Positions 45,001 through 51,000 are shown, counted from the first letter of the stretch. The stretch: DNA of 64,000 bases from an uncultured Candidatus Marinamargulisbacteria bacterium (GCA_964517775.1 CAZFCP010000001.1:115371-179370), one strand, 5' to 3'. Numbers: made by a program.

Positions 45001-48000
45001 AAGATCCGAATGCCAGATAATCGTAATTTTAGGATTATTAAGGATTTTTTCTTTCAGCATTTTTACAGCTTTTAAATTATCGGAACGATGAATCAGGTAT
45101 AAATGGTTTACATATTCTGACAAATAATCGGCCGCATAACAGGCACAGTTTCCACCGCCGATAACAGCCACTTCCTTACCCTGATAAAAAGCAGCATCAC
45201 CCTGAGCATAATAGGAAATGCCCCGGCCCAAAAACTTGGTTTCAAATTCAGCATTAATTTTTTTAGGATCAAGACCTGTAGCAATAATCACAGCTTTTGT
45301 TTTATAAAAACAGCCCATATCCGTTCTAATCACCTTGTGATCATCTGGGGAGTTCATAATATCTTCAACCACTTCACGGCTGTAATAAACCGGGTAGTCT
45401 TCTACGTGTTTTTCCATCATCAACGATAAATTATCGCCTAAAATACCATGAGGAAATCCAAGATAATTAGACACTTTATAACCCGTTGAAGCCTGACCTC
45501 CAGGCAACGCACGTTCTATAATCAATGTTTTTAGCTTTGCACGACCCGCACAAATAGCGGCCGACATCCCGGCTGGACCTGCACCAATAACGATCAGATC
45601 GAAATATTCTCCATCATGAGGTTTGAGCTGGTGTTTTTCAATAAGGGTTAATTCCTGCATAAAAGTTCCTTATTCCGGAGATTTCTCTAGGGTATCGGCT
45701 GATAAACGCAGCTTACTTTTTCCAGTACTTATAAATTGATTACGAATCAAATCGAGCATCAAAGTCAGTCCTGTTACCTCATCATGGTTCTGCCACGCAT
45801 GGGGATTAATGGATAATATCATTTGTTTCGATTTTATAAAATATTCGGCCTGCTCGGATTCGGCCCGGATATCATTAATGGTTAATTTTACAGCACCGTT
45901 TGCAATCAGTTTTTGTTGGGGAATATCATGAGTAAGTTCCCTGGATGTTACGGTTAATTGTCGGTGTTTTAACACAACATCATCCTTAACACTGATTTTT
46001 TGAGCGTGAGATTTGTACAAGGCCTCTTTACTTTTTATAACCATATCGCCCTGACTGATCACCACATTCCCGCTTGCAGACAGTTGTCTTTTTTTTCCGT
46101 TCAACTGAAATTTAGCCGATGTAATCGTGATGGGCTTTACAGGTTCCGCATGCAAAAAACCTATGAAAAATGTCAAAATCAGGCACAGATAAGGCAGCAA
46201 ACGGATCATTTAAACAATCTCCGTTTCACCATGCCGCCCATTGTATCGTTAATGCTTTGCTCAAACACAAAGGCTGTTTTATCAATACGTTCAACAGCCG
46301 CTTTAATTTTTGAGATTTCAAGGCGGGTTACAATGGTAAATACAATATCCATATCATCGTTCATATGTCCTTTTTTACCATAACCGCTTTTTCCTTTATA
46401 GATGGTTACACCCCGGCCCATTTCGTTGGTCAGCATGGTTTTTATAACAGCACTTTTATTGGAGATGATGGTCACACCCGTATATTCCTCAATACCGTGG
46501 ACAATAAAATCCACACTTTTTGATGCCGACAAATAAGTTAAAACCGAATACAACGCAGATTCTACACCTAAAATAAAGGCAGCCACCGTAAAAATAATCA
46601 CGTTGGCTATCAAAATAACATCCCCAATACTTAAAATCGTTCGTCGGCTGATGGTCAAAGCCAGAACTTCCGTTCCATCGATAACACCGCCGCCCCTCAT
46701 AACCAGCCCAATTCCTGCACCCAGAAGTAACCCGCCAAAAACAGAAATCAGTAATTTATCGGTAGTAATGGTGGGAAAATGAATTAACAATACAAAGCAG
46801 GCAAGTCCGATAATGGCACCCAGTGTTTTGATGCTGAACGACCAGGACATATGTTTCACCCCAAAGGTAATAAACGGAAGATTCAACAGTACGATAAAAA
46901 TAGAAACCGGAAGGTGAAGTGTTTCGCTTAAAAGCAACGAAATTCCGGTAATGCCACCGTCAATAAATCCATTCGGAATCAAAAAGCCCTTTAACCCGAG
47001 GGATGCACAAAAAACCCCTAATACGATAAGGAAAAATTCAGATGTATATTTATAAAGCGGAGTAAAATGCTTTTTTGCCCGATAAAGTTTCCGTCTCACC
47101 TACAGCCAGAACCTTTTAATCAATCCATCCAGGCTCCATTTTCCGGCACCTAAAACAACTATCACACCAAATAATAAAATATAATCCATTTCCTGAAGCC
47201 CAAAAAGATCCACCATTGTATGAAGCTCCTGAAGCTGAGCTGTTAAAATAGCCACAACCATAACCCCAATCAAAGCAAGCGACATAAACCTGCTGGCAAA
47301 ACCAACCACGATTAAAAGTCCACCTACAAATTCGGTTAAACTGGCAAAAACAGCATTAAAAGCCGGGAATGGGATTCCTAATTGAGTGAAAAAATCGATG
47401 GTTTCATTAATATGAACCAGTTTTCCCCAACCGCTTTGAATAAAAATAATCCCCAAACAAAAACGCACCAAAAGCAACCATTCTTCCCTGCGGCCATTAA
47501 CAAAAGATAAAAGTCTTTGAAATAAAAGTATCATAGGTGTAACCCTTTCACGAATTGGGATGAATCAACCATTTTTTTTCGACACATGTTGCGCATAACT
47601 GCTGAACACATTCTGCAGAGATATCATACCCTTCCGATTCCAAAACGGGAACAATATCCAGCATCCCTGATAACGACTGTCCCATTTTAAATCCCTGTAA
47701 AAGCCGATACTCTGCATACGTCACCGGCTCTTGCTGAACATCAAAATCAGAATCCCGGTACATCACCATATAGGTTGGAGCAGGCTCGGGAACATCAGAA
47801 CCAGCTTCCCAGTCCAAAATGGGATACGACGTGGCCAGAAGCAAAGCAGAAGGCTGCAGAAACAGTGTGACCTCTGTAAAGTTTTGCTGTTGTTGAGAAG
47901 ACAGCTGTTGAGGATTCAGCGCAGGCTCTTCCCCTAAAAAATAAAGCGAGGCTTCTGCCCAGTCCACGGCTATAAGATCCAGCACAAAAAGTCTGTCCGC

Positions 48001-51000
48001 TTCATCATAATGATGCATAAAAAAAGATGCCACATTCTGGCCTAAAAAAAACAGGGTATAGTGTGTGGATGGATAAGCGGTTAAATAACGTTCCATCCAG
48101 CTTTCAAAAAGGTCATCTCCGAAGTAGGCATATAAACGAGGATAATCCTCCTGCAAGGATTCCAGACACCGAGGCCAAAAATCTCCAATATAAATATCCA
48201 AACGCTCGTCTGCTGACAGATGTCTCGATGGCAGTAAAAAGGTGCTGCATTGCGCATGTTTATCCTCTTCAGGTAAAGAGGATACGGCATCAGCCATCCA
48301 GGATTGTATCGTTAATAACGCTTCAGGAGGTTTTGGTTCCAGAATCAACCGGGATCTCCGTAAGAGCGCGCTGCCATAATTGCTTTGCATAGGAAAGCTC
48401 GGCCAGCAGCTCGTTTAATGGTGGGATTTTATCGTCACGTTCAATCATAACAGACGCATTCTGGAAACGTGGGACGGCTTTCATGTACAGTTCCCAGACT
48501 TCATCCCGAATCGTGTGATCGTGGGTATCCAGAATATAAGTGCCTTTATCTGTATGTCCTGCAATATGAAACTGCACAACACGTTCGGCTGGAACGCCAT
48601 TTACAAAATCCATTGGATTAAACGTATGATTAAATGAGGACACAAAAATATTATTGATATCCAGAAGAATGCCGATATCAGCTTTTTCAGCAATATCGCT
48701 GATAAACTGCCATTCTGTCATCACAGAATCCTTAAACTCAACATAGCTGGATACATTTTCCAGCAAAAATGGCTTTTCCATAAAATCCTGGATAATTCGG
48801 GCGCGGTCTGCCACATAGGCAACCACGTCAGGAGTGTAGGGAAGAGGCATTAAATTATGCAGATTAAAAGAGTTGTATTTACTCCAGCACAAATGATCCG
48901 AAAACCACGGCGGATCCAACCGTTGCACCACTTTTTTAAGTTTTTTCAAATAATCCCAGTCCAATGGATCGGCACTTCCAATAGACAAAGAAACCCCATG
49001 AGGAACCATACGGTAACGCTCTCGAAACTGATCGAGATAATATAAGGCTCTACCGCCTTCCATCATAAAGTTTTCGGAGATAATTTCCAGCCAGTCTACT
49101 TTTGGAGATTCTTCAAGTAAATCAGAGTAATGGGAAGGACGAAGACCAAGACCAAATCCGAGAGTCGGAAGTTGGGATTTAATGTTTGAAAAAGAAAAGG
49201 TACTCATAAAAAAAAAGAGGGCAGGATTTACCTGCCCTTCTAACCAGCTTAGTGAGCTGCTTTTTCTTTACCTTTTGTTTCTTTAGCGTCTTTTGCTTTA
49301 GCATCTTTTGCTTTAGCAGCATCTTTACCTTTGCAGCTGTGTTTACCTTTGCAGCCTTCTTTGCCTTTGCAAGCTTCTTTACCTTTACAACCGTTTTTGC
49401 CTTTGCAGCTATTTTTCTCTTTCTGAGCTGTTGCTGCTGGCTTTTTTGTTTCAGTTGCGCCTGGTTTAGTCGCTTCTGGTTGTGCAGCCATAGCAACACC
49501 TGTCATTAGGAAAAGTCCAGCTACTGATGCAGCCAATAAACGTTCTTTTTTCATTTCAAAGACTCCTTAAGGAAATATTTTATAAGAATATTCTGCTCGA
49601 TCACCCAATGAAAGTCAATCTCTCCGTCACCCCGCCACCACAAAAACCCCATATCACAAATCTTTACCTGCGCAATTTCTCGCGCAGGGAGTGTATTCCA
49701 AATACATGACCGCAGCGAAAATTGTGCAGGTAAAGATTTGGTGGCGGCGACTAGATTCGAACTAGTGGCACCACGGGTATGAACCGTGTGCTCTAACCAA
49801 CTGAGCTACGCCGCCAGAAAAACACCCCAAAAAGGACTCTTATTGTAGAAAGATTTTTCTATTTCAGCAAGCTTATTTTAAGCCAACCTATTTTATCGCC
49901 CCCTTCAAATGATCCCTCACCCGGCCATCACTCAACACAATCACATCAAACCGAGACGGCGGCTCCTCCGAATAAAAACGCATCATATAATATCGGGCCG
50001 TCTTCAAAAGCTTTTTAATCTTCGACGGCGTAATGGCCTCCAAAGGATCCATCAGGCTATTCTCTTTATACGACTTAACCTCCACAAAAACCAGCGTATC
50101 ATTGTCTTGAGCAATAATATCAATTTCCCCATATTTAGATGTAAAATTCTGCCTCACAATAGAATAGCCCTGAAGCTGCAGATATTCCAAAGCCTGCTCT
50201 TCTCCAGCCGTTCCCAGCTGTTTAGATAAAAGTCCCATTAAAACAGCTTCTGCTGCTGAGACACGTTAAAGGTTTTACGGTGGACATCACTAAACCCATA
50301 CTTAAATACTGCCTCCATGTGGTCCTGGGTTCCATAGCCCTTATGTTGTAAAAATCCGTATTGGGGATGAGCACAATCCAACTTTTTCATAATGGTATCC
50401 CGTGTTACTTTGGCAATAATGGACGCCGCAGAAATGGCAGGCACCAAAGCATCTCCCTTAACCAGGGTTTTCACTTCATACCCAGGCAAAGTCGGTGCTT
50501 TATTTCCATCCACAATCACCGTAAATCCAGAGGGATCATCGTCCTGCCCCAAAGCCTGCACAGCCCGTTGCATGGCTAACAGTGTGGCCTTCAGAATATT
50601 GAGTTTATCGATAAGAATATGATTCACAATTCCTATACCAATGACAGACCCTGACGCATTTAAAGCCTCGTAGGCTTGCTCGCGTTGTTGGGCAGATAAC
50701 ACCTTGGAATCGCTTAACAGAGTAAGTGGAAAATCCGGAGAGAGAATCACAGCCGCCGCCACAACAGGACCAGCTAAGGCTCCTCGCCCAGCTTCATCTA
50801 CACCGATAACAGGCTTATCCGTCACAACGTGTTAGCCGTTGTATTTTCGGATAATCAATACTCCGTTATGTCCGCCAAAACCAAAGGAATTGGACATAAC
50901 CACATTAACATCAGCTTTTACAGCAACATTAGGGGTATAGTTCAGATCACAAACTGGATCAGGATTTTCAAGGTTAATCGTAGGAGGAATCATTCCGTCA

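What the first reader, a model, noticed from the sequence alone, without database searches (positions are those of the whole stretch)
47100..49554. Complete bufferin/Hvf-type RiPP cluster: Sec-signal Cys-repeat precursor, MNIO (DUF692), DUF2063, DoxX
The gene order matches the recently described copper-binding bufferin/HvfABC family. That family comprises a DUF2282-type signal-peptide precursor, a MbnB-like multinuclear iron oxidase, a MbnC-like partner and a DoxX protein. Those enzymes convert Cys residues to thiooxazole or oxazolone-thioamide metal ligands. Here the precursor is atypical. It is not a recognisable DUF2282 sequence. It has five tandem xxCKGK units plus a KA-rich tail.
Basis: partly seen in the sequence, partly recalled or inferred. 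Interest (0 to 1): 0.8.

Follow-up and report, generated by a model that had tools for sequence, protein, structure and literature searches.

The report
Bufferin-type copper-peptide cluster, repeat precursor
This is a complete four-gene cluster of a well-known kind: it makes a secreted, cysteine-modified, probably copper-binding peptide, and its only unusual feature is a substrate peptide that is a plain run of five six-residue "xxCKGK" repeats instead of the usual folded six-cysteine domain.

Summary
On the minus strand lie a 101-aa Sec-signal precursor (49554..49249), an MNIO (49207..48323), a DUF2063/HvfC-type partner (48390 or 48348..47548) and DoxX (47534..47100).

- **Enzymes.** The MNIO scores above NCBIfam's curated BufB (bufferin maturase) cut-off. 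Pfam cut-offs are passed for DUF2063, NGO1945_C and DoxX.
- **Precursor.** It matches neither DUF2282 nor an EGKCG protein, and it fails the BufA2 model (23 bits against a cut-off of 60). It still belongs to the published "Cys-Lys" precursor group of bufferins/captophorins. All five Cys are followed by Lys-Gly. The MNIO has the Asp-Asp signature reported for Cys-Lys enzymes. Its Cys1-5 region aligns by profile to BufA2 CysI-V.
- **What it lacks.** It has no CysVI, so the BufA2 disulfide cannot form.
- **Relatives.** The nearest relatives are uncultured, apparently Margulisbacteria-like. They carry the same kind of hexapeptide array with 3 to 8 Cys.
- **Regulation.** A hairpin followed by a T-run between precursor and enzyme genes is conserved as a structure in three loci.

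The most likely product is a disordered, strongly basic periplasmic peptide with up to five 5-thiooxazoles that binds copper. This is a modest variant of a known system, and interest is low to moderate.

The parts
49590..49618 (-). Sigma-70-like promoter candidate (TTGACT, 17-nt spacer, CAGAAT) for the precursor gene
   Evidence: Found by the consensus scan. That scan found no more sites than in shuffled sequence, so it has no weight alone. The same TTGACTTTC...CAGAATAT pair is conserved upstream of the orthologous precursor in L001. Function is inferred.
49563..49568 (-). Shine-Dalgarno sequence AAGGAG, 8 nt upstream of the precursor ATG
   Evidence: Read directly from the sequence. L001 has AAAGGAG at the same place.
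49249..49554 (-). Precursor peptide gene (101 aa): Sec signal peptide, a spacer, five xxCKGK repeats and a Lys/Ala-rich tail ending in His
   Evidence: ORF. Orthologues in L001, L006, L086, L087 and L088 lie directly upstream of the MNIO gene. The codon-level comparison with L001 preserves the reading frame and all Cys. The BufA2 model gives a weak hit of 23 bits, E 7e-5. hhalign to canonical BufA2 cores gives 94% probability, E 8.5e-8.
49486..49554 (-). Predicted Sec signal peptide (residues 1-23: MKKER, a hydrophobic stretch, then A-M-A, with cleavage before AQPE)
   Evidence: The n-region, h-region and AXA c-region are read from the sequence. The A-M-A site is conserved in L001. No SignalP run was available, so cleavage is inferred. 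Cleavage at the predicted site was shown experimentally for Caulobacter bufferins (PMC11626156).
49324..49413 (-). Five tandem 18-nt / 6-residue xxCKGK repeats (Cys50, 56, 62, 68, 74), the presumed modification sites
   Evidence: Direct repeats with 18-nt spacing and TRF period 18. Every Cys sits in the C-K-G context of the conserved central Cys positions (II-V) of canonical BufA2 sequences; the central Cys are the ones modified in Caulobacter Buf2 (PMC11626156).
49209..49238 (-). Intrinsic-terminator-like hairpin (AGGGCAGG-TAAAT-CCTGCCCT) followed by a T-run, directly before the MNIO ATG. Probably a partial terminator or attenuator.
   Evidence: Found by the terminator scan. Folds at -16.2 kcal/mol, z -2.7. 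A hairpin plus T-rich tail occupies the same position in L001 (z -3.8) and L006 (z -4.9) with different stem sequences. Read-through was not measured.
48323..49207 (-). MNIO (DUF692) bufferin-type maturase, BufB-like
   Evidence: PF05114 E 4.9e-104. NCBIfam MNIO_BufB 337.9 bits, above the 310 cut-off. In the alignments to 3BWW, 8HCI and MbnB the metal-ligand motifs line up: HG, SDH, EN, D..NN, H.AGH, DTHD, ERD. The ERDD motif is the Cys-Lys class signature (PMC13097082).
47548..48390 (-). DUF2063/HvfC-type partner protein (PME1). Its start is either ATG 48390 or, more likely, TTG 48348. Either start overlaps the 3' end of the MNIO gene.
   Evidence: PF09836 45.4 bits (cut-off 27.2) and PF22106 NGO1945_C 27.7 bits (cut-off 27). 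NCBIfam HvfC 51.4 bits, below the 142 cut-off. The N-terminal comparison with L001 and L002 places conservation from '..EPKPPEAL' onward.
47100..47534 (-). DoxX-family membrane protein (BufD/HvfX-like)
   Evidence: PF07681 79.1 bits (cut-off 23.6). NCBIfam HvfX 68.7 bits, below the 80 cut-off. Present after HvfC in L001, L002, L086 and L087.
46206..47099 (-). YitT/DUF2179 membrane protein gene starting on the base after the DoxX stop codon. Probably co-transcribed and probably not part of the core system.
   Evidence: Pfam hits. The same adjacency occurs in L001 and L087, and in only those 2 of the 88 other loci held.

Best explanation
This is a functional bufferin/captophorin-type RiPP operon of the 'Cys-Lys' class.

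Proposed pathway:
1. The 101-aa precursor is translated in excess over the enzymes. A hairpin plus T-run after its stop codon probably terminates most transcripts before the MNIO gene.
2. In the cytoplasm the MNIO, working with its DUF2063/RRE-type partner and O2, oxidises Cys residues in the C-K-G context by four electrons each. This yields 5-thiooxazoles at -4 Da per Cys, so up to five sites and -20 Da.
3. The Sec system exports the modified peptide, and signal peptidase I cuts after Ala-Met-Ala23.
4. The product is a 78-residue, Lys-rich peptide of about +13 net charge. It is probably disordered and carries a linear string of heterocycles six residues apart. It chelates Cu(I)/Cu(II) in the periplasm and buffers copper stress.
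5. DoxX is an accessory membrane protein of unknown role that may be dispensable.

Unlike Caulobacter BufA2, the peptide has no CysI-CysVI disulfide and no folded C-terminal segment. The repeat number drifts between relatives (3 to 8 Cys in the related loci examined; up to 9 in metagenome profile hits).

Shown here: the gene families, the motif class, the conservation and the architecture. Inferred from characterised homologues: the chemistry, export, copper binding and attenuation.
For: Family and class assignment:
- MNIO: PF05114 E 5e-104, and above the curated BufB equivalog cut-off.
- Partner: DUF2063 and NGO1945_C both above Pfam cut-offs.
- DoxX is above its Pfam cut-off.
- The MNIO carries ERDD. 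Gadgil et al. report Asp in place of FonB-Phe250 specifically in Cys-Lys-type enzymes, contacting the substrate Lys (PMC13097082, section 14).
- 3BWW, from the Lys-Cys type, has ERDF. Of the related MNIOs held, 70 have DD and the other scorable ones have DD or DE.

Precursor:
- All five Cys are followed by Lys-Gly.
- The precursor core aligns to BufA2 CysI-V at 94% hhalign probability. It gives a weak BufA2 HMM hit, E 7e-5.
- Its orthologues sit directly upstream of the MNIO in L001, L002, L006, L086, L087 and L088, with 3 to 8 Cys in hexapeptide spacing.
- The coding frame is conserved.
- The hairpin plus T-run is conserved as a structure in three loci.

Experimental basis for the inferred chemistry and function:
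- Buf1/Buf2 thiooxazoles, Sec cleavage, Cu binding and Cu protection: PMC11626156.
- 5-thiooxazole unified across MNIO-PME1 clusters: PMC13097082.
Against: - Nothing here was measured. No expression, mass or metal-binding data exist for this peptide or for any pure hexapeptide-array Cys-Lys precursor.
- The precursor fails the BufA2 equivalog cut-off (23 against 60). The HvfC and HvfX NCBIfam models are also below their cut-offs.
- No copper-related gene or ECF sigma/anti-sigma pair lies nearby. The candidate promoter looks sigma-70-like and not stress-specific, so copper induction has no support.
- Five heterocycles is an odd number if copper is bound by pairs.
- The AF2 models are too poor to prove disorder of the precursor (pLDDT 46) or an RRE fold in the partner (pLDDT 45).
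Confidence: 0.78

Rival explanations
1. The biosynthesis is the same (a thiooxazole-bearing, Sec-exported peptide), but the physiological role is not copper buffering. It could bind another soft metal (Hg, Au, Ag, Zn), scavenge oxidants, or act on the envelope, where a +13 polycation would stick to LPS.
For: No copper-homeostasis genes or copper-responsive regulators lie in the neighbourhood. The promoter candidate is sigma-70-like. The peptide is far more basic and less structured than characterised bufferins. MerC-bufferin fusions suggest other metals for some family members (PMC12452194). The operon continues into YitT, an LptA-like gene and a thioredoxin-reductase-like gene.
Against: Every characterised MNIO-PME1 product binds copper and is linked to copper stress (PMC11626156, PMC13097082, PMC12538549). 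The downstream synteny is confined to close relatives: YitT occurs in 2 of 88 loci.
Confidence: 0.15
2. The small ORF is exported unmodified or only partly modified and works as a thiolate (metallothionein-like) periplasmic peptide. Alternatively, the MNIO's true substrate is encoded elsewhere.
For: The precursor fails the BufA2 HMM cut-off. In Buf2 the outer Cys residues are not modified (PMC11626156). FonBC does not process Cys-Lys motifs, which shows that enzyme-substrate matching matters (PMC13097082).
Against: The enzyme carries the Cys-Lys-specific Asp. A precursor of this type is always immediately upstream of this MNIO clade. No other Cys-Lys ORF exists in the window. All five Cys have the C-K-G context of the conserved central Cys positions of canonical BufA2 sequences.
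Confidence: 0.05
3. The 101-codon ORF is a chance open frame in low-complexity DNA and is not a gene.
For: The exact protein is absent from the 15-billion-protein collection, although the neighbouring MNIO, DoxX and FabF proteins are present. The sequence is repetitive, and both an overlapping same-strand ORF and an antisense ORF are also open.
Against: There is a strong SD, a signal peptide and conserved Cys. The frame is conserved with synonymous changes and in-frame indels relative to L001, where the gene is called. Homologous ORFs occupy the same position in six other loci. The profile search finds 681 related signal-peptide Cys-Lys proteins.
Confidence: 0.02

Closest known systems
Bufferin 2 system of Caulobacter vibrioides (bufA2B2C2; BUF_6/12Cys, NCBIfam NF050166 and NF050167), the 'Cys-Lys' captophorins
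   Same: - Sec-signal precursor, then MNIO, then DUF2063 partner.
- Modified Cys lie in an x-x-C-K-G context at 6-residue spacing.
- The MNIO passes the BufB model and has the Asp-Asp motif.
- The precursor Cys1-5 region aligns to BufA2 CysI-V.
   Different: - The precursor scores 23 bits against a cut-off of 60, while canonical BufA2 sequences score 78-89 bits.
- It has 5 Cys, not 6 or 12.
- It has uniform 6-residue spacing where BufA2 has 6,6,7,6 and then about 13.
- CysVI and the C-terminal 'C..GG' segment are missing, so the CysI-CysVI disulfide cannot form.
- It has a Lys/Ala-rich tail.
- DoxX is present here but absent from Caulobacter buf2.
- No SigF/NrsF genes lie nearby.
HvfABC(X)/oxazolin (H. 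influenzae), fontiphorin, gonophorin and bulbicupramide: the 'Lys-Cys' EGKCG-repeat captophorins
   Same: - Four-gene layout of precursor, MNIO, DUF2063 and DoxX.
- The precursor is a tandem array of short Cys-containing repeats.
- Copy number varies between strains (5-8 in Microbulbifer, PMC12538549).
- Every repeat Cys becomes a 5-thiooxazole.
   Different: - The motif is E-G-K-C-G, with Lys before Cys and a 5-mer inside 17-residue units. Here it is x-x-C-K-G-K, with Lys after Cys and a 6-mer.
- The HvfB model scores 261.6 against a cut-off of 360.
- The enzyme has Asp where Lys-Cys enzymes have Phe.
- FonBC does not process NACKG substrates (PMC13097082).
Bufferin 1 / gig operon (DUF2282 BufA1, BufB1, BufC1, DoxX BufD1)
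   Same: The same four gene families in the same order, Sec export and thiooxazole chemistry.
   Different: The precursor gives no DUF2282 hit at E<=1. It has no four-Cys fold with a structural disulfide, and no adjacent ECF sigma/anti-sigma genes.
Methanobactin MbnABC
   Same: An MNIO enzyme acting on Cys of a ribosomal peptide to make a copper ligand.
   Different: The MbnB model scores only 54 bits against a cut-off of 325. The partner is DUF2063 (PME1) and not MbnC. Export is by Sec signal peptide instead of leader peptide and dedicated export. The product is a thiooxazole and not an oxazolone-thioamide.

Membership tests
Bufferin/captophorin (MNIO-PME1) biosynthetic gene cluster | MNIO (PF05114/DUF692) enzyme of the bufferin clade | tested here: met
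   PF05114 347.7 bits. NCBIfam MNIO_BufB 337.9 bits, above the 310 cut-off. In one search the query aligns with 3BWW and MbnB along motifs (HG, SDH, EN, D..NN, H.AGH, DTHD, ERD) that, from my recollection of the MbnB structures, hold the metal ligands.
Bufferin/captophorin (MNIO-PME1) biosynthetic gene cluster | Adjacent PME1 partner: N-terminal DUF2063 plus C-terminal RRE-like domain | tested here: met
   PF09836 45.4 bits (cut-off 27.2). PF22106 NGO1945_C 27.7 bits (cut-off 27), which is marginal. NCBIfam HvfC 51.4 bits, below the 142 cut-off. The gene overlaps the MNIO 3' end, as in L001 and L002. The fold itself could not be confirmed.
Bufferin/captophorin (MNIO-PME1) biosynthetic gene cluster | Cys-rich precursor with a Sec signal peptide encoded immediately upstream of the MNIO | tested here: met
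   The ORF ends 41 nt before the MNIO ATG. MKKER, a hydrophobic stretch and A-M-A are read from the sequence. No SignalP run was available, so the signal peptide is judged by rule only.
Bufferin/captophorin (MNIO-PME1) biosynthetic gene cluster | DoxX accessory gene (frequent, not obligatory) | tested here: met
   PF07681 79.1 bits. The HvfX equivalog scores 68.7 bits, below the 80 cut-off.
Bufferin/captophorin (MNIO-PME1) biosynthetic gene cluster | Cys converted to 5-thiooxazole (-4 Da each), and the product binds copper | not testable with these tools
   This needs co-expression, LC-MS/MS, UV (~305 nm) and metal titration. It is known only for homologues (PMC11626156, PMC13097082).
'Cys-Lys' captophorin group (Gadgil et al. 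2026) | Precursor with multiple Cys-Lys motifs | tested here: met
   All 5 Cys are followed by Lys, and no Lys-Cys dipeptide is present.
'Cys-Lys' captophorin group (Gadgil et al. 2026) | MNIO has Asp, not Phe, directly after the catalytic Asp (FonB-Phe250 / BufB2-Asp251 position) | tested here: met
   The window MNIO reads MIERDDKIP, and 3BWW reads LLERDFNFP. 70 related MNIOs have DD. The rule itself is taken from PMC13097082, section 14.
BufA2 / BUF_6/12Cys precursor family (NCBIfam NF050166) | Score at or above the curated equivalog cut-off (60 bits) | tested here: not met
   The score is 23.0 bits, E 6.9e-5. Canonical BufA2 sequences from L016 and L026 score 88.6 and 78.5 bits in the same test. 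Other hexapeptide-array precursors score 10-32 bits.
BufA2 / BUF_6/12Cys precursor family (NCBIfam NF050166) | Six (or twelve) conserved Cys, with CysI and CysVI forming a disulfide around four modified central Cys | tested here: not met
   There are five Cys with uniform spacing. hhalign pairs them with CysI-V, and the CysVI segment is absent. The definition is from PMC11626156 and PMC12452194.
DUF2282 (BufA1) precursor family | Match to PF10048/DUF2282 with four conserved Cys | tested here: not met
   There is no DUF2282 hit at E<=1. The only hits are sub-threshold ones to Collagen and DUF7640.
Buf_EGKCG / oxazolin (HvfA, Lys-Cys) family | Repeated E-G-K-C-G motifs, with the MNIO matching the HvfB equivalog | tested here: not met
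   The precursor has no KC dipeptide. HvfB NF003818 scores 261.6 bits, below the 360 cut-off. The enzyme has Asp where this class has Phe.
Methanobactin (MbnA/MbnB/MbnC) | MbnB equivalog with an MbnC partner | tested here: not met
   TIGR04159 scores 54.1 bits, below the 325 cut-off. The partner is DUF2063 and not MbnC.

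The most novel reading that the evidence does not exclude
The uninterrupted xxCKGK hexapeptide arrays may form a distinct 'linear poly-thiooxazole' branch of the Cys-Lys captophorins. They have 3-8 Cys in the related loci examined and up to 9 in metagenome profile hits, with no structural disulfide, no folded domain, a polycationic character and often a C-terminal Ala-His. They are typical of a clade of uncultured Margulisbacteria-like bacteria. In this branch every Cys would be modified, and metal capacity would be tuned simply by gain and loss of repeats. 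That would be the Cys-Lys counterpart, reached independently, of the EGKCG-repeat oxazolin/fontiphorin design.
Probability: 0.4. Interest if true: 0.45.

Novelty: new variant of a known kind. Interest (0 to 1): 0.3.

Why it matters
If the peptide is made and fully modified, it would extend experimentally known Cys-Lys bufferins from one folded six-Cys protein (Caulobacter Buf2) to a disordered, modular repeat design. It would also extend them to a candidate phylum that the two large surveys I read do not mention.

The peptide offers a simple natural series of 3 to 8 repeats in related loci, and up to 9 in metagenome hits. That series could be used to ask how an MNIO-partner complex processes iterated sites, and how copper stoichiometry scales with heterocycle number.

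It does not change the picture of what these clusters are. The published surveys already state that these enzymes accept many Cys-containing, signal-peptide precursors.

Tried and rejected
- **DUF2282 and EGKCG/oxazolin membership of the precursor.** Rejected.
- **Collagen, DUF7640, Asr and EntB/EntC hits to the precursor.** All are sub-threshold compositional matches to the Lys/Gly/Ala-rich repeats.
- **Riboswitch or known RNA upstream.** Rfam finds only tRNAs in the window.
- **Anti-phage defence system.** No PADLOC hit for any of the five proteins.
- **Finding the source genome.** The GTDB representative scan gave no identical locus, with a best match of 67%. The exact MNIO is in the protein collection (P0004, NCBI, 220-kb contig), but its contig is not on record. 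Cluster look-up gave no names.
- **PDB sequence search for the DUF2063 protein.** No hit as a single sequence or as a 32-sequence profile.
- **AF2 of the partner with a locus-derived alignment.** The single-sequence model was poor (pLDDT 44.7), with only the C-terminal beta-beta-alpha-alpha-alpha part at 58-86. Foldseek against the PDB gave nothing significant. The RRE protein TbiB1 appeared at E = 2, which is not evidence.
- **AF2 of the precursor.** pLDDT 46 with no secondary structure. This is compatible with disorder, but the alignment had only 4 sequences.
- **YitT as a cluster component.** Adjacency occurs in only 2 of 88 other loci, so it is treated as lineage synteny.
- **The 84-nt hairpin downstream of tRNA-Met as a repeated mobile element.** Its arms occur nowhere else in the window.
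- **A second precursor in the window.** None found.

Full report
**1. What is in the sequence**

The minus strand of 47100-49554 carries four tightly packed ORFs at exactly the reported coordinates:
- a 101-aa ORF (49554..49249);
- a 294-aa ORF (49207..48323);
- a 280-aa ORF (48390..47548), which overlaps the previous gene's 3' end. Comparison with orthologues suggests the real start may be the TTG at 48348;
- a 144-aa ORF (47534..47100).

The small ORF is preceded by AAGGAG 8 nt before its ATG. It reads MKKERLLAASVAGLFLMTGVAMA|AQPEATKPGATETKKPAATAQKEK-NSCKGK-NGCKGK-EACKGK-EGCKGK-HSCKGK-DAAKAKDAKAKDAKETKGKEKAAH. The five xxCKGK units and the Lys/Ala tail are therefore real. The underlying 18-nt periodicity is recovered by two independent repeat finders. 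The N-terminus has the charged, hydrophobic and A-x-A layout of a Sec signal peptide. No SignalP run was available, so cleavage after Ala23 is inferred.

**2. Family tests**

*MNIO.* The 294-aa protein matches PF05114 (MbnB/TglH/ChrH, formerly DUF692) at E 4.9e-104. It is above NCBIfam's curated cut-off for the bufferin maturase BufB (337.9 against 310). It is below the cut-offs for HvfB (261.6 against 360), ApyH, ChrH and MbnB. In alignments to the solved MNIOs 3BWW, 8HCI and MbnB, the conserved motifs HG, SDH, EN, D..NN, H.AGH, DTHD and ERD line up. The identification of these motifs as the metal-ligand positions rests on my recollection of the MbnB structures, not on a test here.

*Partner.* The 280-aa protein passes Pfam's cut-offs for DUF2063 (45.4 against 27.2). 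It passes marginally for the NGO1945 C-terminal domain (27.7 against 27). It is below the NCBIfam HvfC cut-off (51.4 against 142).

*DoxX.* The 144-aa protein is a DoxX (79.1 bits). It is just under the HvfX equivalog cut-off (68.7 against 80).

**3. The precursor**

It has no DUF2282 hit at E<=1. It has no Lys-Cys or EGKCG motif. It scores only 23 bits (E 7e-5) on the BufA2 equivalog, whose cut-off is 60. As a control, canonical BufA2 sequences taken from related loci score 78-89 bits, and other hexapeptide-array precursors score 10-32 bits.

A profile-profile comparison of hexapeptide-array cores against canonical BufA2 cores gives 94% probability (E 8.5e-8) over 30 columns. It pairs the window's Cys1-5 with BufA2 CysI-V, with one gap at the position where BufA2 has a 7-residue spacing. 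Repetitive composition may inflate that score.

What is missing is the C-terminal segment with CysVI. In Caulobacter Buf2, CysI and CysVI form a disulfide and the four central Cys carry the -4 Da modification (PMC11626156). Here no such disulfide is possible. All five Cys sit in the C-K-G context of the conserved central Cys positions (II-V) of canonical BufA2 sequences.

An AlphaFold2 model from a four-sequence alignment has pLDDT 46 and no secondary structure. This is compatible with disorder but is not proof of it. After cleavage the peptide would be 78 residues, with 23 Lys, a pI of about 9.7 and a net charge of about +13.

**4. Which published class it falls in**

Gadgil et al. (PMC13097082) sort the precursors of more than 24,000 MNIO-PME1 clusters into DUF2282, Lys-Cys (EGKCG) and Cys-Lys groups. 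Their Table S2 lists 1,172 repeat-containing Cys-Lys clusters. They report that Cys-Lys-type MNIOs have Asp where FonB has Phe250, directly after the catalytic Asp, and that this Asp is modelled to contact the substrate Lys.

The window enzyme reads MIERDDKIP. The Lys-Cys-type structure 3BWW reads LLERDFNFP at the aligned position. Of the related MNIOs fetched, 70 read DD, and the others that could be scored read DD or DE. Enzyme and substrate are thus mutually consistent with the Cys-Lys class.

Leprevost et al. (PMC12452194) also note hundreds of unclassified signal-peptide ORFs with 1-18 Cys immediately upstream of MNIO genes. The same literature now assigns 5-thiooxazole, not oxazolone-thioamide, to oxazolin as well.

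**5. Relatives**

*Database coverage.* The exact precursor is not in the 15-billion-protein collection, and only three weak relatives were found by word search. The exact MNIO is there (P0004, NCBI, 220-kb contig), but its contig could not be fetched.

*Closest locus.* L001 is a JGI metagenome contig with 79% MNIO identity. It is syntenic downstream (HvfC, DoxX, YitT, LptA-like, thioredoxin-reductase-like, PurQ-like). It has a 100-aa orthologous precursor with six repeats. Between the two precursors, 43 codons are identical, 28 differ synonymously and 26 differ non-synonymously, with in-frame indels only.

*Other members of this MNIO clade (63-68% identity).* All carry the same kind of array:

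| Locus | Cys count | Note |
|---|---|---|
| L006 | 7 | |
| L087 | 7 | |
| L088 | 8 | |
| L086 | 3 | Margulisbacteria MAG |
| L002 | 5 | degenerate repeats |

*More distant relatives.* At 50-60% MNIO identity, almost all loci (Pseudomonadota, Chlamydiota, Nitrospira and others) carry canonical 6-, 11- or 12-Cys BufA2.

*Extent in metagenomes.* A profile of the window peptide and its three relatives finds 681 cluster representatives at E<=1e-3 among 1.84 billion. Most of the top 150 fall into two types:
- a 6-Cys type with 6,6,7,6,6 spacing ('KHACKGQNSCKGKGGCKSSDNGCKGKNSCKGKGGC');
- cassettes of paired CKGKxxCKGK.

Pure period-6 arrays such as P0249 (9 Cys), P0286 and P0342 (5 Cys each) are a minority.

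*Host.* The named relatives of both DnaB (60-64% identity) and the MNIO (64-65%) are Candidatus Margulisiibacteriota / Marinamargulisbacteria. The host is therefore probably from that candidate phylum or close to it. This is an inference from best named hits and not a phylogeny. Neither survey text or supplement that I could read mentions this phylum.

**6. Regulation**

A hairpin (AGGGCAGG/CCTGCCCT, -16.2 kcal/mol) followed by CTTTTTTTTT lies between the precursor stop codon and the MNIO ATG. Hairpins with T-rich tails occupy the same position in L001 and L006 with different stem sequences (z -3.8 and -4.9). The structure is therefore conserved while the sequence is not. I read this as a partial terminator that keeps precursor mRNA in excess over enzyme mRNA. 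This is inferred and was not measured.

A TTGACT-17-CAGAAT promoter-like pair is conserved between the window and L001. No ECF sigma/anti-sigma pair and no copper gene lie nearby. Copper-responsive control, as in Caulobacter, is therefore unsupported here.

**7. Mechanism proposed**

The steps are ribosomal synthesis, cytoplasmic four-electron oxidation of up to five Cys to 5-thiooxazoles by the MNIO with its DUF2063 partner, Sec export and signal-peptidase cleavage, and periplasmic copper chelation by a linear, polycationic string of heterocycles. DoxX is an accessory and was dispensable in Caulobacter (PMC11626156).

Confidence is about 0.78 that this is a working captophorin-type system. 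Confidence that copper is the physiological ligand is lower.

**8. Verdict**

The cluster is an ordinary member of a very large known class. Its precursor is a divergent architectural variant: it fails BufA2 membership, has five hexapeptide repeats and has no disulfide. It comes from an uncultured lineage. Interest is low to moderate at 0.3.

Noticed in passing
window 49657-49740 (minus strand), between tRNA-Met (49815..49739) and the precursor promoter: An 84-nt near-perfect hairpin with 22-nt arms (95% complementary) and a 40-nt loop that itself pairs. It folds at -43.2 kcal/mol, z -8.4. Its arms occur nowhere else in the window. It could be the tRNA terminator, an operator or a relic of an insertion; this is unresolved.
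   Followed up: partly
window 46206-47099 (-); L001 8105-9001; L087 5131-6039: A YitT/DUF2179 membrane-protein gene starts on the base after the DoxX stop codon (a 4-nt overlap in L001). It follows DoxX in three loci of this MNIO clade, but in only 2 of the 88 other loci held. It is either lineage synteny or a clade-specific accessory.
   Followed up: partly
precursor C-termini: window 49252-49257; L001 5657-5959; L002 3706-3969; L086 2639-2926: Four precursors of this clade end in Ala-His (KAAH, KQAH, NAAH, KKAH). Several more distant profile hits also end in His. This may be an extra metal ligand or a processing mark.
   Followed up: no
L088 4753-5163: In one related cluster (63% MNIO identity) a DGC-domain (PF08859) gene sits where DoxX normally is.
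   Followed up: no
window 49249-49554 and 47548-48390: The exact precursor sequence, and the DUF2063 protein with the ATG-48390 start, are absent from the 15-billion-protein collection. The MNIO, DoxX and FabF proteins of the same contig are present. The precursor was probably not called, or was called differently, in the source annotation.
   Followed up: partly
window 30000-32604 (+) compared with L001 3255-5594: In L001 the P5C reductase and MgsA/RarA genes lie directly upstream of the precursor. In the window they sit about 17 kb away on the other strand. A rearrangement breakpoint therefore lies just upstream of the cluster, next to the tRNA-Met.
   Followed up: partly
window 16372-18942 (-) and 21711-27518 (-): An 856-aa ankyrin-repeat protein and a 1935-aa ORF with no Pfam match at E<=1e-5. 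This kind of content is often seen in host-associated bacteria.
   Followed up: no
window 39808-40587 (+) and 36094-39786 (+): A 259-aa DSP-PTPase-type phosphatase whose best Pfam models come from polymorphic-toxin and 'Swiss Army Knife' families. It is preceded by a 1230-aa ORF whose only hit is a partial PPDK_N ATP-binding domain at its N-terminus.
   Followed up: no
L010 932-1354; P0002, P0248, P0359: Some Cys-Lys precursors have His/Lys-rich tails (KKHHGKKK, HGKKHAHKHGKKHGKKHGE) in place of the Lys/Ala tail. This suggests variable auxiliary metal-binding tails.
   Followed up: no
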